NCBI GenBank assembly: GCA_017822615.1
Contig: GCA_017822615.1_4530.1
Reading direction: 5' to 3' (one strand)
From: a phage
DNA: 64,000 nt
The notes under the pieces are model-generated. The model made no database searches. It was given only the letters and a program-made list of their open reading frames with translations, and was not told where the DNA came from. Numbering within the stretch: the first letter of the stretch is position 1; each line of letters starts with the position of its first letter. Positions 378-10,923 of this stretch are shown in pieces. Made by a program: the position numbers and the translations under genes.

Positions 378-920
378 TCACAAATATCGTCTTTGCGGTA
401 TTTTGTCTGGGAAAAGTATTTCGATCAGTTTATTATGATATTTGCCTAAAAGATTCTGCCCTTTCCAGGTAGCAGGGTTTAGCACCCCTGGTTCATACAT
501 TCCCATTCCAATACCGTAAACCTTATCGTAAGGACTTGCTTCAACAAACGTTTTGTATTGGTAAAGGTGTAAGTCTGCATACAAATCTGGATTCTGTACA
601 TATTTCAAGCATAAGCCTCGCATAACAATACGCTCACGGTTCTCTTCCCACATATCATTATTAAAACCAGATACCGCTCGACCCATACGTTTGTAGTATG
701 CTTGTTTCCTCTCGTTGTCACGTATAGTTGAGTGATCAAGGATAGCTGCTGCAATCGCATGATCCTTGAACAGCAAAGCCTTACGCCACATCATATATTG
801 CTCAACACAACAGAAAGTCTCATTGTAACCTGGTTCAGTTTCTGTAAAGGGTGCAATATACCAATTACTAAACACATCTTTATGTGAAAAGAAGAATACA
901 TATTCATCAGTTATTCTCAT
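378..920 (-). CDS. NADAR-domain protein (YbiA-like, DUF1768)
   Basis: 180 aa ORF; N-terminal FFFSHKDVFSNWY...PFT and central EQYMMWRKALLF resemble the conserved NADAR/YbiA core by eye; last gene of leftward operon. Confidence 0.6.
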   Translation of the reverse strand: MRITDEYVFFFSHKDVFSNWYIAPFTETEPGYNETFCCVEQYMMWRKALLFKDHAIAAAILDHSTIRDNERKQAYYKRMGRAVSGFNNDMWEENRERIVMRGLCLKYVQNPDLYADLHLYQYKTFVEASPYDKVYGIGMGMYEPGVLNPATWKGQNLLGKYHNKLIEILFPDKIPQRRYL

Positions 921-1132
921 TTTTTCATGCCTTCTAAAACTTTAGCTTGCCCGTCTTGAAAAGCTTTCATCAGAACTATCTTAAGATTGACTTCCAAACG
1001 TTCTTCATCCTCTCTATAACAATCCAACACTGCTTTAAGTTCATCATAGTGGTTCAGAATAGGTTTAAAGATTTCATGATCTGCTAAACGTGCCATAGTT
1101 TCTCCTTTGTTAGTCCATCCACCAGTAGCCAT
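917..1132 (-). CDS. hypothetical protein
   Basis: 71 aa ORF, 4-nt overlap with downstream gene (translational coupling), same strand as operon. Confidence 0.4.
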   Translation of the reverse strand: MATGGWTNKGETMARLADHEIFKPILNHYDELKAVLDCYREDEERLEVNLKIVLMKAFQDGQAKVLEGMKK

Positions 1133-1475
1133 AAACTGCGTCTGCGTCGATGAGTTTGTGTTTGTTGTTCCGCATGTAGTCTAAGATAAGTAGACGTTTA
1201 TTGTATCTGGAGAGATTATGACCCTCTTTTCCGCCATAGTCAAAATATTTTGCAAGATCTTTACACTCAAACAAAATCAGTTCGGGAGTTTCTTCACACT
1301 GGTCTGTCTGGTACACTTGACGAATGATCATGTATACATCGTCGTCTTCCGCTAAATGCTCTACTGGTCCACATCCAGCAGGAACAAATTCATAGTCCCA
1401 TCTGATCAGATGTTTCTCTACTGCTTCAAAGAAGTCCATTCTTTCGTTGCGCATAATTTGAACGTCAACTAACAT
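1110..1475 (-). CDS. hypothetical protein
   Basis: 121 aa ORF in leftward operon; start may lie downstream of the track start. Confidence 0.4.
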   Translation of the reverse strand: MLVDVQIMRNERMDFFEAVEKHLIRWDYEFVPAGCGPVEHLAEDDDVYMIIRQVYQTDQCEETPELILFECKDLAKYFDYGGKEGHNLSRYNKRLLILDYMRNNKHKLIDADAVYGYWWMD

Positions 1476-2929
1476 GTTTCCTCCTCTCTCATTATTCCAC
1501 CTGCTTGGTTGATAGCACTTAAGACGATAGCCAAATCCTCGCGCAGGAAGGTTTCACTATGACCATCTTTCATGTGCAAGCGTTCTACACAGCCAATAGA
1601 CGGTAGAATCTGATCAGTCTTAGACTTTAGCTTACTCTCTAACGCCCTGCAAGCTTGGTAGGACGGCAGATCGAACAATGCTATACGGCGCATAGAGTAA
1701 TTGTTGTTTGCATTCTGCCCTTTGATCCTGATATCACTGTCCTTTGCAATCCCCAACTTGTAAGCTCCCGTGTCTTCTCCGTACTCATCAAGAATAATAT
1801 TGATGTAAAATTCTTGCATATTTCTGTTCTTACAGCCTGGACAACCTTTCCCATTGAGATAATCGGTAGGTGTGATCGTTTGCTCTCCATGCTCCCTACA
1901 TAGATATTTAAACTTGCTGTTATTGCTTACCTTATCAATGAATCCTATAAATTGATCCCCTCGTTCCTGGCAAGCTTTGGTCATACGGTAGGCCCATTGT
2001 TCAGGAGTGTAATGATAATATTTAGAACAACGGCAAGGAAGGCCACCCCTTTTCAAATGACTCATCTTCATCTCAAATTTATTATCGCATAAGCCTTCTT
2101 TACAATAATCATCCTCTGCACATATAGGACATTCTACAATCCAGTAAACCTGACGACCTAATCTATCTACTCTATCGCTACGATAATATTTACGCTCTAC
2201 ATTATCAGGACAAGCTTTTATAAAATCTTCAACATGTTGTTTATCCTCCATTGTATTCCTTTGTTTCGTCATTTCTCTTTGACAACTGTAGCATCCAGTC
2301 CCTTGTTTAGCACTGTTTACAGTGGTAGTGCACCATTGACCATGAACCTTACACTCACAAATCAACTTAGTGCGGGAACCGTTCCACGGTTCCACATAGC
2401 CTCTAACAATCCAGGGTTTTTCTTTATAAGCTTCTTCTACTTCTTCTTTATGTTTCTCCCATGCAATCGATGTTCTTTCTCTGTTTGCTTCTCCCATACA
2501 CTTCCTGCATCCACTCCCGTTTTTCGCAGAAGATATAGAAGTAGATCTCCACTCCCCATGTAAAGCACAACAACAAACCAGTTTAGTATTCCATCCTTTC
2601 CATTCTCCGTGCCATCCTGTAACAGTCCAAAACTTACCTGCCTGATTGTAAGTGGTTTGCACTTCTTCTTTATATTGCTCCCAGGTTTTTGATTTGTTTA
2701 TAGATACTGCTTTACTTATAATCTCCCTACCGCATTCTGGACAACCCCTCCCTAGTTTAGCGGTATTTATGCTTGTTGTTTTCCATTCTCCATGCAGAGC
2801 ACAGATGCATCTAAGTTTAGTTTTATTGCCGTTCCACGGCTCAATATAATCTACAACAGTCCAAGACTTACCTTGATAAGCTTGTTTTATATCTGTTTTA
2901 TATTGTTCCCAAGTGACTATTTTTGGCAC
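1469..2929 (-). CDS. Cys-rich protein with three tandem ~60-aa zinc-ribbon-like repeats
   Basis: 486 aa; three repeats of W-x-YK...EPWNG-x-KTKL-x-C-x-CALHGEW-x-TT/S-I...AK-x-G-x-GC-x-x-C in the N-terminal ~210 aa, then further CxxC pairs (CPICAEDDYC, CPGCKN). Confidence 0.5.
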   Translation of the reverse strand: MPKIVTWEQYKTDIKQAYQGKSWTVVDYIEPWNGNKTKLRCICALHGEWKTTSINTAKLGRGCPECGREIISKAVSINKSKTWEQYKEEVQTTYNQAGKFWTVTGWHGEWKGWNTKLVCCCALHGEWRSTSISSAKNGSGCRKCMGEANRERTSIAWEKHKEEVEEAYKEKPWIVRGYVEPWNGSRTKLICECKVHGQWCTTTVNSAKQGTGCYSCQREMTKQRNTMEDKQHVEDFIKACPDNVERKYYRSDRVDRLGRQVYWIVECPICAEDDYCKEGLCDNKFEMKMSHLKRGGLPCRCSKYYHYTPEQWAYRMTKACQERGDQFIGFIDKVSNNSKFKYLCREHGEQTITPTDYLNGKGCPGCKNRNMQEFYINIILDEYGEDTGAYKLGIAKDSDIRIKGQNANNNYSMRRIALFDLPSYQACRALESKLKSKTDQILPSIGCVERLHMKDGHSETFLREDLAIVLSAINQAGGIMREEETC

Positions 2930-2979
2930 ACCTCCCCCTTTAGCTATTAGTGCGAGCCTACAACAAAAGAATAACTAAA

Positions 2980-3013
2980 ATCCCTCCATAACAAATGCCC
3001 CTTGCGGGGCATC
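2980..3013 (-). terminator. intra-operon hairpin (ATGCCCC-ttgc-GGGGCAT)
   Basis: perfect 7-bp GC-rich stem at 2995-3012, U-rich on the minus-strand RNA downstream (rc of AACAAA); between ATPase gene and repeat-protein gene. Confidence 0.45.
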
Positions 3014-3017
3014 TTTA

Positions 3018-4157
3018 TTAGAACACGCTACCAAGTGTAGTGGAACGTTGTGTTACAGGCTCCAGCACCACTCGCAAAGTGTTTCCTGGTGTAGTGCTCA
3101 TAACCAGAATCTTACCACCTTCAATCAGATCACAAGTTAGACCATCAGCCGTTGCACATAGATCAATATGTGGATCACCATCTTCATCCAGGATAACATA
3201 ACTGTTGGTTTCCATTGCTTCCACTTCATCATCTTTCAAACTTTGTAGATAGATGTTCAGGGAACAAGCACCCGACAAAAACTTAGTAGGGGTGAAGTCG
3301 TGCCAGTTATTGATCCAATTCACCTTCAAGGTTTTGCCATTAGCTACGATAGAAGCCACATTCCATTTAGCATCGTTCCCTAAAGAAATACCCATCATTT
3401 CAAGACATTCTTTAAAAGTCATTTTTGGATAGAAATTCAATTCTTCTACAATGCCTTGAATAACATCGAAAGACAACTCTGTGCTAACATCCCATAAACG
3501 TTGGAAGTTATCTACGTGCTTTTTATTTACCAAGTTCTTATCCAAGTAATCTAACATAGTTTCACTAGACAGTTTATCGTAATTGAAACTGTAGTAGATA
3601 CGACTAGGACGGTTTACAAAATATTCCGAGATATAACCACTATTTTTAGTGAGGATGTAAAGTTTATTCCCACTTCCTGTTCCATCCAACAAGGTCAACA
3701 GTGCTTCCTGATCTTCTTTCTTAGCGTACACTTTATCAAATTCGTCAAATAAAACAACAGCACGATCTGTAATTTTACTCATAAATTCTAAGAAGCCAGC
3801 ATCTGTGTAAGGCTGTGTAACCAAAATGGTTGGAATACCTAAACCTTCTGTGGACATTAGAGACATGCTAATTAGTTTAGCTAACATCGTCTTACCACTG
3901 CCTTTTGTCCCTGTCAGTAACACCCCAGTATTTTTACCTTCTTTACTACGACGAGCAAATGTTTTAATAACATGTGCGGCGCGATCTTTAGTTTCCCCAT
4001 AAAGAGTGTTCGGAAGAGAGAAACTTTCACCACGCACTAAAGAGTAGTTACCGTGCGGATCGCAGTTGACAACCCAAACTCCAGCAGGAAGTTTATTAGC
4101 TTCAACGCCATATTCCTTATTTACAACAGCTACATCTCCAAAAATAGTGTATTTCAT
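3018..4157 (-). CDS. P-loop NTPase (AAA-type ATPase-like)
   Basis: 379 aa; Walker A GTKGSGKT and Walker B-like VVLFDEFD. Confidence 0.55.
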   Translation of the reverse strand: MKYTIFGDVAVVNKEYGVEANKLPAGVWVVNCDPHGNYSLVRGESFSLPNTLYGETKDRAAHVIKTFARRSKEGKNTGVLLTGTKGSGKTMLAKLISMSLMSTEGLGIPTILVTQPYTDAGFLEFMSKITDRAVVLFDEFDKVYAKKEDQEALLTLLDGTGSGNKLYILTKNSGYISEYFVNRPSRIYYSFNYDKLSSETMLDYLDKNLVNKKHVDNFQRLWDVSTELSFDVIQGIVEELNFYPKMTFKECLEMMGISLGNDAKWNVASIVANGKTLKVNWINNWHDFTPTKFLSGACSLNIYLQSLKDDEVEAMETNSYVILDEDGDPHIDLCATADGLTCDLIEGGKILVMSTTPGNTLRVVLEPVTQRSTTLGSVF

Positions 4158-4513
4158 TAGAACGTTTCTCCTTTTAAAATAATTACTGTAAACTTTGCAG
4201 TTTTTTCACTCTTAATATTCTTGACTAATAAGTATTCTCCTCCAGGGGCATCTTTGTATTGTTTAATAGCTACTATTTCATTTTTGCAAGTAGCTATAAT
4301 CGAATAAAAAGGACGTTCCGTGTTATCTTCTTTTCCCGTATATGCCTCAACATCTTTACACTCTTCTAGAACACCATTCCCAGGTGTATAGTAAAACTTG
4401 TTGCCTGTGATCACAACATCTTTACCAATATCTGTTTTAACTGCTACAAATTTTTGAGCGTAAGTGGTGAAGCTTACGGTAGCCAGCAATGTGGCTAAGA
4501 TTAGTTTTTTCAT
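4157..4513 (-). CDS. secreted/periplasmic protein with signal peptide
   Basis: start moved to MKKLILATLLATVSFTTYAQK (cat at 4511-4513) preceded by GGAGG RBS; classical signal peptide. Confidence 0.5.
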   Translation of the reverse strand: MKKLILATLLATVSFTTYAQKFVAVKTDIGKDVVITGNKFYYTPGNGVLEECKDVEAYTGKEDNTERPFYSIIATCKNEIVAIKQYKDAPGGEYLLVKNIKSEKTAKFTVIILKGETF

Positions 4514-4524
4514 AAACTTCCCTC

Positions 4525-4689
4525 CTATTCCCACAACATACAAATCGCAGCGACAAACATATTAGCAATAGCCGCACCAAGAACTATAAACATCGCCAGT
4601 TCAGAACAATATTCACCAACCAAAGGGGATACTATTGCACAGAGTAACCCCAATGTCAAACACAAGTTGATGATGAAGTTTAAAATCAT
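4525..4689 (-). CDS. small hydrophobic membrane protein (54 aa)
   Basis: not in ORF track (<60 aa); MILNFIINLCLTLGLLCAIVSPLVGEYCSELAMFIVLGAAIANMFVAAICMLWE, AAGGAG RBS, fills the gap between flanking genes. Confidence 0.4.
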   Translation of the reverse strand: MILNFIINLCLTLGLLCAIVSPLVGEYCSELAMFIVLGAAIANMFVAAICMLWE

Positions 4690-4698
4690 ATTCTCTCC

Positions 4699-4890
4699 TT
4701 ACAACCAACCTTTTGCCTGATAGCCTTTAGAAAATCCATCTTCCCATTCTTCGAATTCCTTTTTGTGTGTCATTGGACAATATGGATTTACTTTATTAAA
4801 CATACCAAACTTGAACCCTGCGGTATACCCCTTCTTAAAAGCTATTGATTCTAAAGAGATCATATTCTTTCTCCTCTTAGAACTCGACAA
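4699..4890 (-). CDS. hypothetical protein
   Basis: 63 aa ORF in operon. Confidence 0.35.
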   Translation of the reverse strand: MSSSKRRKNMISLESIAFKKGYTAGFKFGMFNKVNPYCPMTHKKEFEEWEDGFSKGYQAKGWL

Positions 4891-5128
4891 TGATTTTGTC
4901 TAAGTGTTCTGCTTCAACTTGGGATAATGTTAACACCTGCACCAAACCTCTGTCAATACCAATTTTAATGACTTGCAAATAATCACCAAAAAGATCTGAT
5001 AAAGAAATAGCATGTTCCGTAACTACAATAACTTCATTACCTTTAGTGTATTCTTTCCACACCCGACTACATTTATAAATGTAATCTTTTTGATCTTCAG
5101 TAATCATTTTAGGTTTGATACTTAACAT
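4877..5128 (-). CDS. hypothetical protein
   Basis: 83 aa ORF, tightly packed in operon. Confidence 0.4.
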   Translation of the reverse strand: MLSIKPKMITEDQKDYIYKCSRVWKEYTKGNEVIVVTEHAISLSDLFGDYLQVIKIGIDRGLVQVLTLSQVEAEHLDKIIVEF

Positions 5129-5493
5129 TACATACTCCCGTATTCTGGTTCAATATTATGTTTACGACAAATGGTATCCCAACGTTCATTACCAAAACTT
5201 CTTCCATGTAGAGCGTTAAATGCGAAATGCTCTGCCAACCACAATACTACATCATCAGGATCTGTGTCAAGAGGAATTCTAAACTCTCGATCATAACGCA
5301 TACGCAGAATAAAATCCTTATCATCTTCAAGGAGATACATGTGACTTTTAGCCCGTGATGCCAAATCAAAGAAAGGAGGCTCATCTTTCCAAACGTGACG
5401 CTCAACTTCAACACCATGATCTACTACCAGAGTAGCGATCACCTCTCTCATTTCTTTACTAAACATATTACCTCCATTAACCAATGAGTTCAA
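5128..5493 (-). CDS. hypothetical protein
   Basis: 121 aa ORF, start/stop overlap with neighbours. Confidence 0.4.
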   Translation of the reverse strand: MNSLVNGGNMFSKEMREVIATLVVDHGVEVERHVWKDEPPFFDLASRAKSHMYLLEDDKDFILRMRYDREFRIPLDTDPDDVVLWLAEHFAFNALHGRSFGNERWDTICRKHNIEPEYGSM

Positions 5494-5665
5494 CTGCTTT
5501 GCAGATGTAGATCCAAACCGGAGTGAGCATAAGAGCTATACCGAATGCACAATTCCACTTAATTCCCATTTCCTCTATTAGAGACATGATTAAGCCAACA
5601 GCACTAATAATCAGATAGATCCCTAAGAAAGCCATTGTGAAGAATTCAGACATATTTAGCTCCAA
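5477..5665 (-). CDS. small membrane protein
   Basis: 62 aa, two hydrophobic segments. Confidence 0.4.
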   Translation of the reverse strand: MELNMSEFFTMAFLGIYLIISAVGLIMSLIEEMGIKWNCAFGIALMLTPVWIYICKAVELIG

Positions 5666-6012
5666 AGATTATCAAAATAACTAGCGAATAAAAGACGGCC
5701 CTCTAACCGTGCCTTCCTTTGATCTTCAGCATACACGATTTCTGGATTACCACTATCAATAAAAGCATTCTCCATCTTTTCTAAAATATTTAACCACTCT
5801 CTTCTACCTGTCTCCTCTTCTTCATCTGTATACGGCGCACTTCTATTTGGATACAAAACACGCATCAGTTTAGTGGGGATCATGACAAACGTGCTATTGT
5901 TTGCCTTCTCACGGAAGGCTTTAATTCCTGCATAGATTACCTTCCCCAAAGCTGCATCCAAATCCATCAGGTCACTTTCTTCTATTTGAATTTCATCGTG
6001 TACAATTTTCAT
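5656..6012 (-). CDS. hypothetical protein
   Basis: 118 aa ORF in operon. Confidence 0.4.
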   Translation of the reverse strand: MKIVHDEIQIEESDLMDLDAALGKVIYAGIKAFREKANNSTFVMIPTKLMRVLYPNRSAPYTDEEEETGRREWLNILEKMENAFIDSGNPEIVYAEDQRKARLEGRLLFASYFDNLWS

Positions 6013-6296
6013 CGTGCCTTCTCCCGATCTGCGTCCAATTTCAACAAGAAGGTTGCATACTCTTCTGAGCCTTGATGCAAGAACATACGATAAGAACTTA
6101 CCAGTTTCTTGGTCGTTGTATAACGTTCCATTTCCCCAACAACACCTCCACCCAGGGTGTAGAGCACAACACCCTCAAACCCAACATGAGTTACTACTTC
6201 AACCAAGTCTGTGTTATCCCAATGGTAGTTAGGTGACACAATAAGATCGCCAACTGCCAGTTTAATGTTTGCTACTTCATTTTGTGAATAATACAT
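6009..6296 (-). CDS. hypothetical protein
   Basis: 95 aa ORF, ATGA overlap with downstream gene. Confidence 0.4.
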   Translation of the reverse strand: MYYSQNEVANIKLAVGDLIVSPNYHWDNTDLVEVVTHVGFEGVVLYTLGGGVVGEMERYTTTKKLVSSYRMFLHQGSEEYATFLLKLDADREKAR

Positions 6297-6308
6297 TTGG
6301 TTCTCCTC

Positions 6309-6602
6309 TCACATTAAGACACGTTTTGTATCGATGGGTGCATTATCAAACATGTTAAGAACATTGTCAAGCAGTTTTACTAATTCATTTGTAATTTGTT
6401 CTTTTGAACGGGAGGAAGTGAGCACTTTGCTTTCACCAACGATATGCATAACTTTTATAGGAGCATCTAAAATAATGTTGTGCTGACGATCCTCTTCAAA
6501 AGAAGCCAACCATTTCTCGTTGTTACCGTGTAAGGCTACAATGACACCAAAACCGTTAATTGTCTCAGAAATATTCTTAGTTGCTAAAGTAATGTTCATC
6601 AT
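6309..6602 (-). CDS. hypothetical protein (first gene of leftward operon)
   Basis: 97 aa ORF directly downstream of the divergent promoter region. Confidence 0.4.
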   Translation of the reverse strand: MMNITLATKNISETINGFGVIVALHGNNEKWLASFEEDRQHNIILDAPIKVMHIVGESKVLTSSRSKEQITNELVKLLDNVLNMFDNAPIDTKRVLM

Positions 6603-6627
6603 CTACCTCTCTTGTTAATGTTCATAT

Positions 6628-6655
6628 ATGATACCTGAAAATAATTTCAGATCAA
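6628..6655 (-). promoter_or_regulatory. sigma70-like promoter for leftward operon
   Basis: on minus strand TTGATC (-35, 6650-6655) N16 TATCAT (-10, 6628-6633). Confidence 0.4.
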
Positions 6656-6658
6656 GTA

Positions 6659-6686
6659 TTGACATGCTTTTTAGTCCTGTTAAGAT
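6659..6686 (+). promoter_or_regulatory. sigma70-like promoter for rightward operon
   Basis: TTGACA (6659-6664) N16 TAAGAT (6681-6686); AGGAG RBS and ATG at 6717 follow. Confidence 0.5.
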
Positions 6687-6716
6687 CAACTCATACAAAA
6701 CAAGAGGAGAAAACAA

Positions 6717-7151
6717 ATGCAAAACATCAAACTGACTTGGACCGAAGCTAAAGAAGCAATGAAGGAAGGTAGACGTGTTGAGCACAGTTATTTTTGCGGT
6801 GGTGAATGGTTTGAGATGCGAGATGGTGTTATTCTCGACGAACAAGGTTATAACATGGAAACTTGGTTCAGAGGGGAAGCTTGGCAGGAAGAGGGTTGGT
6901 CTGTAATTGAAAAAGAAGACAGTAAGGAAGAAGGCGTGTTGTCTAATGTAGAACGCAAGATGAGGGAAACAAAGATACCTGCTTTGGATTTTGTATACCT
7001 GGAAGAACTTGTGGCAGCATCTTTTGTAGCAGGAAATCTTTGGAATACACCTGTTAGCCGACTGGAGAACCAAAATAACCCATCTGCTCGTAATCACAAG
7101 CTTTATAAGGGTAAAGGTCACAACAAATTAAAGAAAGGAAAGAAGAAATGA
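6717..7151 (+). CDS. DUF2829-like protein (family that includes Thoeris anti-defence Tad2)
   Basis: 144 aa; N-terminal LTWTEAKEAMKEGRRVEH and later ETWFRGEAWQEEGWSV resemble the DUF2829 pattern by eye; Lys-rich tail. Confidence 0.4.
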   Translation: MQNIKLTWTEAKEAMKEGRRVEHSYFCGGEWFEMRDGVILDEQGYNMETWFRGEAWQEEGWSVIEKEDSKEEGVLSNVERKMRETKIPALDFVYLEELVAASFVAGNLWNTPVSRLENQNNPSARNHKLYKGKGHNKLKKGKKK

Positions 7152-7294
7152 TCTACAAAAACAAGTTCACTGGTTGTCTCCGTAAATTTATCGATAAGAA
7201 AGGGTATGTTTCTCTTGACAACGGGGTTACATGGACAGAGAATGGCACTTCAGAACAGCTGATCAAAGCTTTGCCTTACTACGAGGAGGTTTAA
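7148..7294 (+). CDS. small hypothetical protein (48 aa)
   Basis: not in track; ATGA overlap with upstream stop and TAAATG junction with the next gene. Confidence 0.3.
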   Translation: MIYKNKFTGCLRKFIDKKGYVSLDNGVTWTENGTSEQLIKALPYYEEV

Positions 7295-7618
7295 ATGTCA
7301 AACAGTTTGTTTAGCGTGTCAATTGCACCACGTGTCAACATCCGTTGTCAGTTTGTTACTTTACCTGGTGTAACGCATATCACATTAGAATACGATCCTC
7401 GCTCACGAGACAACCCAATCACAGGGAAAATTGATTGTGCTTATGGAGACTTTGTTATGGATCACCAAACCCTCTTATGCTGTGTGCAACGCTTACAGGC
7501 AGGATCTTTATACATCTTTAAGAAAACAGTGTTCCAAGAGATTGCTCAAGCAGTTGAAAGCGGTATGGAGACTCTTAACGTTATGATTGAAGCAGCCAAC
7601 CAGAAGGAGGTTTTATGA
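7295..7618 (+). CDS. hypothetical protein
   Basis: 107 aa, GAGGAGG RBS. Confidence 0.45.
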   Translation: MSNSLFSVSIAPRVNIRCQFVTLPGVTHITLEYDPRSRDNPITGKIDCAYGDFVMDHQTLLCCVQRLQAGSLYIFKKTVFQEIAQAVESGMETLNVMIEAANQKEVL

Positions 7619-7872
7619 CACTTTATCACGTAACCACTGAAGGCGATACCGAAGGTCGTACTACGAAAGATTTAGGGTATGTTGAAGCAGATTCCCCTGA
7701 ACACGCAATTAAGTATTTGCATTCCATCGGTAAATATGCGACTTATGAATATACTATCTACAAGGTTGAAGTTAGCCCTATACAAGTGGCAACTCCTATG
7801 GTAGAGTTGAAACATCTTAAGGCAAAAGTAAGACCTGGTATAGTGTCCGATTACAAAGGGGAGGTAAAGTGA
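7615..7872 (+). CDS. hypothetical protein
   Basis: 85 aa, ATGA overlap. Confidence 0.45.
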   Translation: MTLYHVTTEGDTEGRTTKDLGYVEADSPEHAIKYLHSIGKYATYEYTIYKVEVSPIQVATPMVELKHLKAKVRPGIVSDYKGEVK

Positions 7873-8081
7873 GTGGATGGATTAAAGTATCTGGTACCGA
7901 GGATGTTCCTATCGGAGAGTGGCTTGTAATCATGGCAAACGGCAAGAAGGGATTCTGTGAAGTTAACAAAACACGCAATGGCACGATAGCTGTTATCAAT
8001 GGTCATTTTTATTTTGACTTGGCACCTGTGATCGCATACCATGCACTACCAACATATGAAGAGGAGATTAACAATGGCTAA
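7869..8081 (+). CDS. hypothetical protein
   Basis: 70 aa, GTGA overlap with upstream gene. Confidence 0.4.
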   Translation: MSGWIKVSGTEDVPIGEWLVIMANGKKGFCEVNKTRNGTIAVINGHFYFDLAPVIAYHALPTYEEEINNG

Positions 8082-8397
8082 CAAAGAACCACATGTATAC
8101 ACTGCACTGGTAAAGCACTTGAACAAAGAACGTAACAAGATCATTGCAGATTATCGTAAATTTAAACGTAGTAGTCTAAATCGTAAATACATGCCACATG
8201 CAGCTTTTGACGCTACACGTGCAGTGTTTCGTGCAAAGATTGCAGAAATGGATAATCTGCTTAAGCTTGCACGATTATCTATTCAGGCATCCAAAGTAAC
8301 AGGAGTCACTCACTTCTTTGACTTCGATACTAAAGCACTATATGCACCAGAAGCAGGTGAACAATTGATTTATCTACTTACCAAAAATAAGTGTTGA
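8074..8397 (+). CDS. hypothetical protein
   Basis: start moved to ATG 8074 (MANKEPH...) with GAGGAG RBS at 8061-8066. Confidence 0.45.
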   Translation: MANKEPHVYTALVKHLNKERNKIIADYRKFKRSSLNRKYMPHAAFDATRAVFRAKIAEMDNLLKLARLSIQASKVTGVTHFFDFDTKALYAPEAGEQLIYLLTKNKC

Positions 8398-8422
8398 CTT
8401 TTTTCAAAAAATATGCTACCCT
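8394..8422 (+). promoter_or_regulatory. sigma70-like promoter
   Basis: TTGACT (8394-8399) N17 TACCCT (8417-8422), start of a 170-bp non-coding leader. Confidence 0.4.
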
Positions 8423-8566
8423 AACCCCGAAGGGTCGAGCGATAGCGAGTATAGATTATGTAATAGATTAATCTCTATCGTTAGATGTTCGAAGAACAGA
8501 GATTTAAGTACTTGTTCTTATCGGTAGATGATCGTAAGATCAAGAACAATAATAGGAGAGTGTGTT

Positions 8567-8764
8567 ATGTTAGTCAGTGAAATACTACCTGACTCTAATG
8601 GTAATCAGATCACTATTGATTGGTTTCCTGGTACTGGTACACTAGATCTAACTGCTGAATGGTCTGGTGATATTTATGGAGAAGGTGTGTTATCATTGTC
8701 TACAGAACAAATGATCATCCTTCGTGACTTCTTAATTAGTTTAGATCTAGGAGAAAACAAATGA
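8567..8764 (+). CDS. hypothetical protein
   Basis: start moved to ATG 8567 (MLVSEIL...) after AGGAG RBS. Confidence 0.4.
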   Translation: MLVSEILPDSNGNQITIDWFPGTGTLDLTAEWSGDIYGEGVLSLSTEQMIILRDFLISLDLGENK

Positions 8765-9030
8765 GTAAAACTTCTGTTGAGTTTATCGAGAAATCCCCTG
8801 TTCCAAAGTTATACCGTTTATCTGAAATTGAACCTATGTCTGTTTTCTATTACTACAACTCAGAAGTAAATGAACAAGAACGGGACTACTACTTAGCTAC
8901 AGATACAGGTGCAGTTTGCTTAACAGGTTCTCGTGCAGGAGAATACATTGCAAATAGTCGTTTTAATGAAGCAGATTCCTGTTGGGCTAAGGTTGAAACT
9001 AAGATCGTCATCAACATCATCAATCATTAA
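8761..9030 (+). CDS. hypothetical protein
   Basis: 89 aa, ATGA overlap. Confidence 0.45.
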   Translation: MSKTSVEFIEKSPVPKLYRLSEIEPMSVFYYYNSEVNEQERDYYLATDTGAVCLTGSRAGEYIANSRFNEADSCWAKVETKIVINIINH

Positions 9031-9052
9031 GATTAATCTCACAAAGAGTTAC

Positions 9053-9082
9053 TTGACATGTGCAAAGCTCTTTGTGTAGAAT
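9053..9082 (+). promoter_or_regulatory. sigma70-like promoter flanked by 9-bp inverted repeat
   Basis: TTGACA (9053-9058) N18 TAGAAT (9077-9082); CACAAAGAG (9040-9048) and CTCTTTGTG (9068-9076) bracket the -35. Confidence 0.5.
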
Positions 9083-9112
9083 AAAGATTCACTTACTAAG
9101 GAGACTTTATAA

Positions 9113-9310
9113 ATGGCTACAAAGAAACAGAAAATGAAATGTCTTACTCTTACTGAACTGGGTCAAGCTTCCAACTGCGTTACTGTTGGTAAGATTTATT
9201 CTACAGTTCTTGATAAAGACAACAACAGTTTTACTTTCAAAGATGATAACGGAAACCCTCAAGTTGGAATCTACCCTTCCTGTGCTTTTGGTACTTGGGA
9301 AAAAGTGTAA
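9113..9310 (+). CDS. hypothetical protein
   Basis: 65 aa, AAGGAG RBS. Confidence 0.4.
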   Translation: MATKKQKMKCLTLTELGQASNCVTVGKIYSTVLDKDNNSFTFKDDNGNPQVGIYPSCAFGTWEKV

Positions 9311-10554: not shown

Positions 10555-10923
10555 ATGAAGGTATTAAACTTTTACCATTTAGGCAAAACAATCCCAGAAG
10601 GTGCTGTTTATATTGGTAGAGCAATGCCACACATGGGACTAAAAGCCTCCAAGTTTGCAAACCCTTTTAAGTTAAAAGATGATGAACCACGAGGATCAAC
10701 TATACAAAGGTATAAAGAGTGGTTGTGGGAGCAAATTCGTTGTGGTAAGATCACTCTTGAAGATTTATTAGAGCTAGAAGGGAAAGATTTAGTTTGCTTC
10801 TGCTCCCCTCAACCTTGTCATGGAGATGTATTGATAGCAGCCGTGGCTTGGGCTAGAAAAGAGTGGGACAAAAGGCATCCTACTTATGTAGACAATTATT
10901 GGATTTGGGAGGAGAATTTTTGA
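10555..10923 (+). CDS. DUF4326-like protein
   Basis: 122 aa; YIGR...FANPF...Y..WL...L..L.GK.L.C.C.P.PCHGDVL pattern recalled for DUF4326. Confidence 0.4.
   Translation: MKVLNFYHLGKTIPEGAVYIGRAMPHMGLKASKFANPFKLKDDEPRGSTIQRYKEWLWEQIRCGKITLEDLLELEGKDLVCFCSPQPCHGDVLIAAVAWARKEWDKRHPTYVDNYWIWEENF

What the first reader, a model, noticed from the sequence alone, without database searches (positions are those of the whole stretch)
6717..7151. First gene of the rightward operon resembles DUF2829 (Tad2-type sponge family)
The N-terminal LTWTEAKEAMKEGRRVEH and the later WFRGEAWQEEGWSV segment fit the DUF2829 pattern as I recall it; this family includes the Thoeris anti-defence protein Tad2. Its position directly after a strong promoter fits an immediate-early anti-defence role.
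Basis: inference. Interest (0 to 1): 0.55.

Follow-up and report, generated by a model that had tools for sequence, protein, structure and literature searches.

The report
Compact Tad2-fold early phage protein
The first gene of this phage's rightward operon starts with a shrunken, very divergent version of the Tad2 "immune-signal sponge" fold, but it lacks Tad2's ligand-binding motifs and carries an extra highly basic tail, so it probably belongs to an uncharacterised sister family rather than being a true Tad2.

The parts
6642..6665 (+). Perfectly conserved intergenic block containing the -35 hexamer TTGACA (6659-6664) and its upstream flank
   Evidence: Identical in window and phage Nernie while flanking intergenic DNA and coding sequence diverge; -35 called by the promoter scan.
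6678..6686 (+). Extended -10 element: TG (6678-6679), T, TAAGAT (6681-6686)
   Evidence: Promoter scan: 10/12 match, 16-nt spacer, TG before the second hexamer. A TG-n-TAATCT element sits at the same position in Nernie.
6703..6709 (+). Ribosome-binding site AGAGGAG, 7 nt upstream of the ATG
   Evidence: Read from the sequence; conserved in Nernie.
6717..7151 (+). CDS, 144 aa plus stop. The stop TGA (7149-7151) overlaps the ATG (7148-7150) of the next ORF (ATGA), which suggests translational coupling.
   Evidence: phrog_22208 matches full length at 1.2e-99. 21 orthologs.
6729..6911 (+). Residues 5-65: compact Tad2-fold module (alpha1 8-16, beta 20-23, beta 32-35, D36-G37 turn, beta 38-40, short helix 55-58, beta 61-64)
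6912..6986 (+). Residues 66-90: acidic linker of variable length with a predicted helix 73-84 (low confidence)
   Evidence: Indel-rich columns in alignment A1; pLDDT 61-68.
6987..7076 (+). Residues 91-120: conserved C-terminal segment (LE.LVAASF..G..W.TPVSR), predicted helix 92-104, restricted to phAPEC8-like phages
   Evidence: Invariant columns in A1. tblastn of the C-terminal half finds only phAPEC8-like phages (71 records).
7077..7148 (+). Residues 121-144: invariant polybasic tail NPSARNHKLYKGKGHNKLKKGKKK (net charge +10)
   Evidence: Invariant in 20 orthologs. The same KG(K/R)GHN(K/R)LxK(R/G)KKK tail occurs in divergent clusters P0030, P0032, P0042 and P0051. Charge.

Best explanation
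The gene encodes a two-part phage protein that is probably made early. Residues ~5-65 form a compact, highly diverged member of the Tad2 (DUF2829) fold superfamily. It keeps Tad2's alpha1-beta1-beta2-beta3-(beta4)-alpha3-beta5 scaffold, but a two-residue turn replaces the long beta2-beta3 loop with helix alpha2. It belongs to a distinct, uncharacterised family of ~60-70-aa proteins found in virulent enterobacterial phages. I infer that the module works as Tad2 does in outline: a small oligomerising unit whose conserved loop residues (H23, Y25, F26, E30, E42, G44, Y45, W56, W61) form a binding site at positions equivalent to the Tad2 pocket. I infer that it sequesters or blocks a host factor early in infection, most plausibly a small immune or stress signal other than gcADPR, because the gcADPR-contacting motifs are replaced. 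In the phAPEC8 lineage this module is fused through an acidic linker to a lineage-specific segment that ends in an invariant polybasic tail. That tail probably tethers the protein to a polyanion (nucleic acid, ribosome or membrane) or to a partner protein. What is shown: the ORF, the architecture, the family, the remote homology, the fold, the loss of the motifs, and the conserved promoter block. What is inferred: oligomerisation, ligand binding, anti-defence role, expression timing and tail function. Rough confidence by step: Tad2-like fold and remote homology ~0.85; some early counter-defence or host-takeover role ~0.6; sponge-type sequestration of a small molecule ~0.35.
Against: There is no Pfam, NCBIfam or PDB sequence hit for the protein itself. 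The confident hhalign core is only 19 columns, and global mode gives 35% probability. Foldseek E-values are 0.4-1.3. The structure is predicted, not solved. The Tad2 ligand motifs are absent: R-x-GWNGKG becomes H-x-YF-t-x-d-E, and SQTD has no equivalent. Helix alpha2, which forms the Tad2 dimer interface, is missing, so the tetramer and its inter-protomer pockets may not form. The module family is acidic (mean net charge -3.9; -6 here), whereas sponge pockets are reported to be almost always strongly positive; whole-domain charge is only a crude proxy for pocket charge. About 43% of family representatives carry extra domains, and at the same locus Nernie pairs the module with an unrelated C-terminal domain. 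That pattern would also suit an adaptor or targeting module. No expression or functional data exist.
Confidence: 0.4

Rival explanations
1. It is a bona fide Tad2: a homotetrameric sponge that sequesters 1''-3' gcADPR (or His-ADPR / N7-cADPR) and inhibits Thoeris.
For: Tad2 fold. Aromatic residues sit at positions aligned with SPO1 W25 (F26) and W73 (W50) in the relaxed hhalign alignment. Tad2-family members bind very different signals. Early-gene position.
Against: The PF11195 threshold is not met. N26, S76, T78 and D79 equivalents are absent, and the GWNGKG loop, invariant in 118 DUF2829 proteins, is replaced. The alpha2 dimer-interface loop is missing. The W50/W73 correspondence comes from the low-confidence part of the alignment, and W50 is only 23% conserved in the wider family.
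Confidence: 0.1
2. The Tad2-like module is a protein-binding or targeting domain rather than a small-molecule sponge. In this reading the phAPEC8 protein acts through its C-terminal part: the polybasic tail binds DNA, RNA, ribosomes or membrane and blocks a host process or defence protein stoichiometrically.
For: The tail is invariant across orthologs, and the same tail occurs in divergent clusters with different middle regions. Other lineages end in other basic tails or SEC-C zinc motifs. The C-terminal domain is swapped at the same locus in Nernie. The module is acidic and the tail is +10. A DUF2829 protein was reported as the anti-CRISPR AcrIIA7 with no ligand mechanism known. Other Thoeris inhibitors, Tad3-Tad8, act by direct protein binding.
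Against: 57% of family representatives are the bare ~65-aa module with no tail, so the module must be functional on its own. The conserved residues cluster in pocket-equivalent loops. No partner or nucleic-acid-binding domain was detected.
Confidence: 0.3
3. The similarity to Tad2 is convergence of a small alpha+beta fold plus a common helix motif, and the family is evolutionarily unrelated to DUF2829.
For: The confident profile-profile core is only 19 columns, and global probability is 35%. All Pfam hits are below the gathering score. A narrow local DUF2829 HMM finds no family member. Foldseek E-values are above 0.1.
Confidence: 0.1
4. The module is a Tudor/Agenet/SH3-like barrel (a reader domain), like the Phage_tudor protein encoded next door.
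For: The module profile hits giant eukaryote-type proteins in 16 and 5 stretches, and these are Tudor_5/Agenet repeat proteins. The leftward neighbour 6009..6296 is Pfam Phage_tudor.
Confidence: 0.04
5. It is a tRNA methyltransferase, as annotated for the identical ortholog in LR597654.1.
For: The product name in one GenBank record.
Against: No methyltransferase family appears in Pfam, NCBIfam or PHROGs. There is no SAM-binding motif, and a 144-aa protein with a 60-aa Tad2-like module is too small. All other listed records say 'hypothetical protein'.
Confidence: 0.01

Closest known systems
Tad2 / DUF2829 (Pfam PF11195 'Tad2-like'): SPO1 gp34.65 (PDB 8SME/8SMF/8SMG), ModTad2 (9EIB), SptTad2 (8WJD)
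   Different: The module is ~60 aa rather than 85-105 aa, and the beta2-beta3 loop with helix alpha2 (the Tad2 dimer interface) is missing. The GWNGKG and SQTD ligand motifs are replaced. It scores below the Pfam threshold, or for this protein is not detected at all. It is acidic. Here it is fused to an 80-aa extension with a polybasic tail. Oligomeric state and ligand are unknown.
HgmTad2 / AcrIIA7 (PDB 8KBI, 9KZR)
   Different: HgmTad2 has the canonical GWNGKG and SQTD motifs and the central insertion; the window protein has neither.
phrog_3474 / unnamed ~65-aa family (e.g. T5-like saus132 gp011, 4MG gp253, JD18 gp048, Erwinia phage Fougasse gp70)
   Same: This is the family to which the N-terminal module actually belongs: phrog_3474 at 2e-30, 40% identity to saus132 gp011, and the signature EA..M..G.kV.H.YF...E...M..G.I..E.GY...FW....W..GW.I.
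   Different: Most members are the bare module (78 of 136 representatives). The window protein belongs to a branch with a C-terminal extension and tail, and it diverges at several consensus positions (W8, C27, G28-G29). No member has a known function.
Fused sponge proteins (Tad2-Acb4, Tad2-Sequestin fusions)
   Same: They set a precedent for a Tad2-type module joined to a second, exchangeable module in one phage protein. This compares with the C-terminal domain swap seen between the window phage and Nernie.
   Different: The C-terminal parts here match no known sponge family (Acb4 PF13876 or Sequestin PF21825) in Pfam scans of 139 members.

Membership tests
Pfam PF11195 (DUF2829 / Tad2-like) | Sequence scores at or above the Pfam gathering threshold (25 bits) | tested here: not met
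   No hit at E<=10 for the window protein or its 19 aligned orthologs. Standalone relatives reach only 14.8-20.8 bits.
Pfam PF11195 (DUF2829 / Tad2-like) | Profile-profile homology (the literature criterion is HHpred probability >0.9 to PF11195) | tested here: inconclusive
   Local hhalign against an alignment of 118 genuine PF11195 proteins gives 91.7%, E 7.8e-7, with clean controls. However, the confident core is 19 columns and global mode gives 35%. It was not run against the actual Pfam/PDB70 HHpred databases.
Tad2 fold | [quoted passage not shown] | tested here: met
Tad2 fold | Extended beta2-beta3 loop with helix alpha2 (homodimer interface) | tested here: not met
   The model has a D36-G37 hairpin turn between strands 32-35 and 38-40. 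The hhalign alignment has a 24-column gap at this point.
Tad2 sponge (functional) | beta1-beta2 loop motif G-W-N-G-K-G (SPO1 W25, N26 contact gcADPR) | tested here: not met
   The motif is invariant in 118 DUF2829 proteins. It is replaced by S-Y-F-C-G-G-E here and by x-Y-F-t-x-d-E in the family. Only the aromatic character (F26, 94% conserved) is kept.
Tad2 sponge (functional) | W-x-A-S-Q-T-D motif (SPO1 W73, S76, T78, D79) | tested here: not met
   W50 aligns with W73 in the low-confidence part of the alignment but is only 23% conserved in the family. S, Q, T and D have no conserved equivalents.
Tad2 sponge (functional) | Homotetramer with inter-protomer pockets | not testable with these tools
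A tandem-duplicated member, P0048, hints at self-association.
Tad2 sponge (functional) | Binds gcADPR or another immune nucleotide and inhibits Thoeris, CBASS or Pycsar | not testable with these tools
   This requires binding and plaque assays.
phrog_3474-type mini-Tad2-like family (unnamed) | ~60-aa module with signature A11, G18, H23, F26, E30, E42, G44, W61 | tested here: met
   The window protein has all eight residues. phrog_3474 matches at 2.1e-30 over residues 4-65. The family HMM finds it at 2.6e-26 as the only copy in the window.
Tudor/Agenet | Five-stranded barrel that superposes on Tudor domains, or matches Pfam Tudor families | tested here: not met
tRNA methyltransferase (label in LR597654.1) | Any methyltransferase domain or SAM-binding motif | tested here: not met
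   Pfam, NCBIfam and PHROGs give none.

The most novel reading that the evidence does not exclude
The ~60-aa module defines a new, minimal branch of the Tad2-fold superfamily that sequesters a host signal not yet known to be targeted by phages, or uses a new oligomeric pocket built from His, Glu and aromatic residues. It would be used as an immediate- or pre-early weapon by many virulent enterobacterial phages (phAPEC8-like, T4-like, T5-like, FelixO1-like, Vequintavirus-like). In the phAPEC8 lineage an invariant polybasic tail would additionally localise the sponge to nucleic acid or ribosomes, a mode not described for any sponge.
Probability: 0.25. Interest if true: 0.8.

Novelty: new variant of a known kind. 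Interest (0 to 1): 0.55.

Why it matters
Tad2-type sponges are a main way phages neutralise nucleotide-based immunity, and their ligand range keeps growing (gcADPR, His-ADPR, N7-cADPR, cUMP/cCMP, CDNs). This analysis identifies an uncharacterised sister family that standard annotation cannot see: it scores below the Pfam threshold and is always named 'hypothetical'. It is nonetheless present in about 1% of cultured phage genomes (485 of 50,697 records), including model and therapeutic phage groups and the pre-early region of T5-like phages. Because the canonical ligand motifs are replaced by a different conserved set of residues, testing it could reveal a new ligand specificity or a non-sponge use of the Tad2 fold. 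The experiments are cheap: a 65-aa protein, E. coli hosts and existing defence-system panels. It also corrects a misleading 'tRNA methyltransferase' annotation.

Tried and rejected
1. Direct Pfam, NCBIfam and PDB sequence searches with the protein and with its ortholog profile returned nothing.
2. A word-indexed homolog search with the N-module alone found only one fragment.
3. The first AF2 model, built from the shallow ortholog MSA, was too poor for a firm call (pLDDT 62.7; Foldseek Tad2 hits at probability 0.6-0.8). It was superseded by the deep-MSA model.
4. Tudor/Agenet reading: it was prompted by giant repeat proteins in the HMMER hit list and rejected by the fold searches.
5. Atd1, listed as a Phapecoctavirus anti-TIR gene, turned out to be a MazG-like pyrophosphatase and is unrelated.
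6. TadIV-1 (T4 vs.3) is a helical dimer and is unrelated.
7. Phage T5 itself: none of its annotated pre-early proteins matches the module. The module is present only in the Epseptimavirus-type T5 relatives examined.
8. A narrow local DUF2829 HMM found no mini-family members, which illustrates how weak the sequence signal is.
9. The conserved promoter block is not a repeated motif in the window.
10. A back-translated tail motif scanned against IMG/VR found only one phAPEC8-like ortholog plus one chance hit, so the tail is not a mobile motif on other proteins at that stringency.
11. Supplementary tables of the Tad2 papers: none are held for the 2025 paper, and family motif strings are absent from the held text of the 2023 paper. 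This is uninformative about whether the family was ever screened.
12. Neighbouring genes gave no recognisable anti-defence domains, only DUFs, a Phage_tudor protein and an AAA ATPase.

Full report
**Observation.** The window is a phAPEC8-like Phapecoctavirus; bases 5600-9100 are 99.9% identical to Escherichia phage ESCO13. ORF 6717..7151 (+, ATG, 144 aa) exists as described and contains LTWTEAKEAMKEGRRVEH (residues 6-23) and WFRGEAWQEEGWSV (residues 50-63). All substantial ORFs from 378 to 6602 are on the minus strand, and those from 6717 onward are on the plus strand, so this is the first gene of the rightward block. The same layout is annotated in phAPEC8_ev052.

The 114-bp intergenic region holds TTGACA (6659-6664), a 16-nt spacer ending in TG, TAAGAT (6681-6686), and an AGAGGAG ribosome-binding site. 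Such sites are not enriched in the region overall (14 found against 9.7 +/- 3.7 expected). However, the block 6642-6665 with the -35 is perfectly conserved in phage Nernie, whose ortholog is only ~65% identical in protein. A TG-extended -10 and the RBS sit at the same positions there. The stop codon overlaps the next ORF's ATG (ATGA at 7148-7151).

**Direct family test.** Pfam gives no family at E<=10 for the protein or for any of 20 aligned orthologs. NCBIfam gives nothing. Searches of PDB sequences with the protein and with the ortholog profile find no Tad2. PHROGs gives phrog_22208 over the full length (1e-99), phrog_3474 (a 64-position profile) over residues 4-65 (2e-30), and a weak phrog_2709 match; all three are of unknown function.

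**Anatomy.** Twenty-one orthologs, all from phAPEC8-like phages, show three parts:
- a conserved N-terminal module (~1-65);
- an acidic linker of variable length (66-90);
- a conserved C-terminal segment ending in an invariant tail, PSARNHKLYKGKGHNKLKKGKKK.

The module has net charge -6 and the last 24 residues have +10.

**The module's real family.** An exhaustive HMMER search with the module profile found 352 cluster representatives at E<=1e-3. Most are standalone proteins of 60-70 aa with the signature EA..M..G.kV.H.YF...E...M..G.I..E.GY...FW....W..GW.I. Of 136 representatives, 78 are the bare module, 40 have C-terminal extensions and 16 have N-terminal extensions.

tblastn finds the module in 485 cultured phage records. 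Klebsiella (169), Escherichia (134) and Salmonella (75) phages dominate. The records span phAPEC8-like, Vequintavirinae, T4-like, FelixO1-like and T5-like phages, and the gene is 'hypothetical' wherever it is annotated.

**Link to DUF2829.** Three independent lines converge.
1. *Pfam, transitively.* 52 of 139 family members give weak PF11195 'Tad2-like' hits (best E 2.9e-4), and the next most frequent family hits 8 members. Of ten standalone members, nine score 14.8-20.8 bits against a cutoff of 25. All alignments are anchored at profile position 1, and two span positions 1-72 and 1-71 of 73.
2. *Profile-profile.* hhalign of the 133-sequence module alignment against 118 genuine PF11195 proteins (obtained) gives probability 91.7%, E 7.8e-7 and score 34.7. 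Thirty column-shuffled templates reach at most 14.9, and the reversed template reaches 12.8. The confident core is 19 columns (helix alpha1 plus strand beta1). The relaxed alignment is collinear over residues 6-64 against 1-84, and global mode gives 35%.

I conclude with about 0.85 confidence that the module is a remote, compact relative of the Tad2 fold.

**Differences from Tad2.** SPO1 Tad2 consists of alpha1, beta1-beta5 and two loop helices. It dimerises through alpha2 and beta2, tetramerises through alpha1, and binds gcADPR between protomers using W25, N26, W73, S76, T78 and D79.
- In the window protein a two-residue D36-G37 turn replaces the beta2-beta3 loop with alpha2. The hhalign alignment has a 24-column gap at that point.
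- Across 118 DUF2829 proteins, R-x-G-W-N-G-K-G and W-x-A-S-Q-T-D are essentially invariant. The mini-family instead has H(90%)-x-Y-F(94%)-t-x-d-E(98%) and no SQTD. Only scaffold positions are shared (A11/A6, G18/G13, V21/V16, W61/W81), plus aromatic character at F26.
- The mini-family is acidic, with mean net charge -3.9 and 92% of members negative. Sponge pockets are described as almost always strongly positive. Whole-domain charge is only a crude proxy for pocket charge.

The family's own most conserved residues (H23, Y25, F26, E30, E42, G44, Y45, W56) lie in the loops that form the pocket in Tad2. This suggests a binding site in the same place with different chemistry. That is an inference.

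**Context bearing on function.**
- In the T5-like phage saus132 the homolog gp011 (40% identity, E 5e-15) lies inside the left terminal repeat with dmp, A1, A2 and the Ung-dependent nicking endonuclease. This is first-step-transfer, pre-early DNA. T5 itself lacks the module.
- In 4MG and JD18 the module sits in runs of small accessory ORFs.
- In Nernie it holds the same first-gene position but is fused to an unrelated 118-aa C-terminal domain with no basic tail.
- The exact KG(K/R)GHN(K/R)LxK(R/G)KKK tail recurs in four divergent clusters with different middle regions. Other lineages end in other basic tails or in SEC-C zinc motifs.
- The window holds one copy of the module and no canonical DUF2829.
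- Neighbouring genes are DUFs, a Phage_tudor protein and an AAA ATPase, which is uninformative.

**Mechanism.** My best reading (overall confidence ~0.4) is an early counter-defence or host-takeover protein. Its Tad2-like module would self-associate and bind a ligand other than gcADPR, and the phAPEC8-specific tail would tether it to a polyanion or a partner. The rivals are:
- a canonical Thoeris sponge (~0.1), disfavoured by the missing motifs and the missing dimer loop;
- a non-sponge protein-binding or targeting module acting through the tail (~0.3);
- convergence without homology (~0.1);
- a Tudor-like reader (~0.04), prompted by hits to Tudor-repeat giants but rejected by the fold searches;
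- a tRNA methyltransferase (~0.01), which is an unsupported label in LR597654.1.

**Literature.** Tad2-family members bind gcADPR, His-ADPR, N7-cADPR, cUMP/cCMP and CDNs using two distinct pockets. Published family definitions rely on PF11195. Atd1, the known Phapecoctavirus anti-TIR gene, is a MazG-like enzyme, and TadIV-1 is a helical dimer. Neither is related to this gene. I found no paper that describes this short family. The library lacks most subscription-journal content and most supplementary tables, so this is absence of evidence only.

**Verdict.** The Tad2-like fold is real. Membership of DUF2829 as defined is not met, and the Thoeris-sponge function is unsupported. The gene is best filed as a new variant of a known kind: a minimal Tad2-fold family with replaced ligand motifs, here carrying a polybasic-tailed extension. 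Interest is moderate (0.55). The family is widespread, invisible to standard annotation and cheap to test, but its function remains inferred.

Noticed in passing
window 7077-7148 (residues 121-144): An invariant polybasic C-terminal tail, NPSARNHKLYKGKGHNKLKKGKKK (+10). The same KG(K/R)GHN(K/R)LxK(R/G)KKK ending occurs in divergent clusters P0030, P0032, P0042 and P0051, whose middle regions differ. Other family members end in other basic tails or in SEC-C zinc motifs (P0097, P0149). Its function is unexplained.
   Followed up: partly
L004 (Escherichia phage Nernie PP925835.1) 2501-3052: At the same first-gene position behind the same conserved promoter block, Nernie encodes the same N-module (65% identity) fused to an unrelated 118-aa C-terminal domain with no basic tail. 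This is a C-terminal domain swap at a fixed locus.
   Followed up: partly
L002 (Escherichia phage saus132 NC_047884.1) 7432-7629: The standalone 65-aa homolog (gp011) lies inside the left terminal repeat, the first-step-transfer pre-early region, of this T5-like Epseptimavirus, next to dmp, A1, A2 and the T5.015-type nicking endonuclease. It is therefore present twice per genome. Phage T5 itself lacks it.
   Followed up: yes
L001 (LR597654.1, phAPEC8_ev052) 5118-5552: The identical ortholog is annotated 'tRNA methyltransferase'. No methyltransferase domain is detectable in Pfam, NCBIfam or PHROGs, so this is probably an annotation error.
   Followed up: yes
window 6009-6296 (-), 6309-6602 (-), 7295-7618 (+), 10555-10923 (+): Neighbouring small genes match recently defined Pfam families: Phage_tudor PF24144 (3e-26), DUF7325 (5e-24), DUF7247 (1e-46) and DUF4326 (1e-21). 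All are of unknown function and lie in the same divergent early-looking region.
   Followed up: no
proteins P0024 (2489 aa), P0078 (2611 aa), P0055 (1169 aa): The module profile hits giant eukaryote-type proteins in 16, 5 and 6 stretches. P0024 and P0078 are Tudor_5/Agenet/SGF29-Tudor multi-repeat proteins. The centre of the module (G.kV.H.YF..dEw..m.dG.I) weakly resembles Tudor strands, but the fold searches do not support a Tudor assignment.
   Followed up: yes
protein P0048 (175 aa, metagenomic): This member contains two tandem copies of the module, which would fit a module that functions as a dimer or higher oligomer.
   Followed up: no
window 9053-9082 (+) and 8398-8527: A second, better sigma70-like site (TTGACA, 18 nt, TAGAAT; 11/12) lies just upstream of ORF 9113..9310. 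There is also an unusually long (130-bp) non-coding gap after ORF 8041..8397, with a minus-strand terminator-like hairpin at 8435-8418. The rightward block may be more than one transcription unit.
   Followed up: no
window 6615-7121 (-): A 168-aa antisense ORF overlaps almost the whole gene. It has a GTG start and a low-complexity, hydrophobic translation, and it is not annotated in any related phage record. It is most likely spurious.
   Followed up: no
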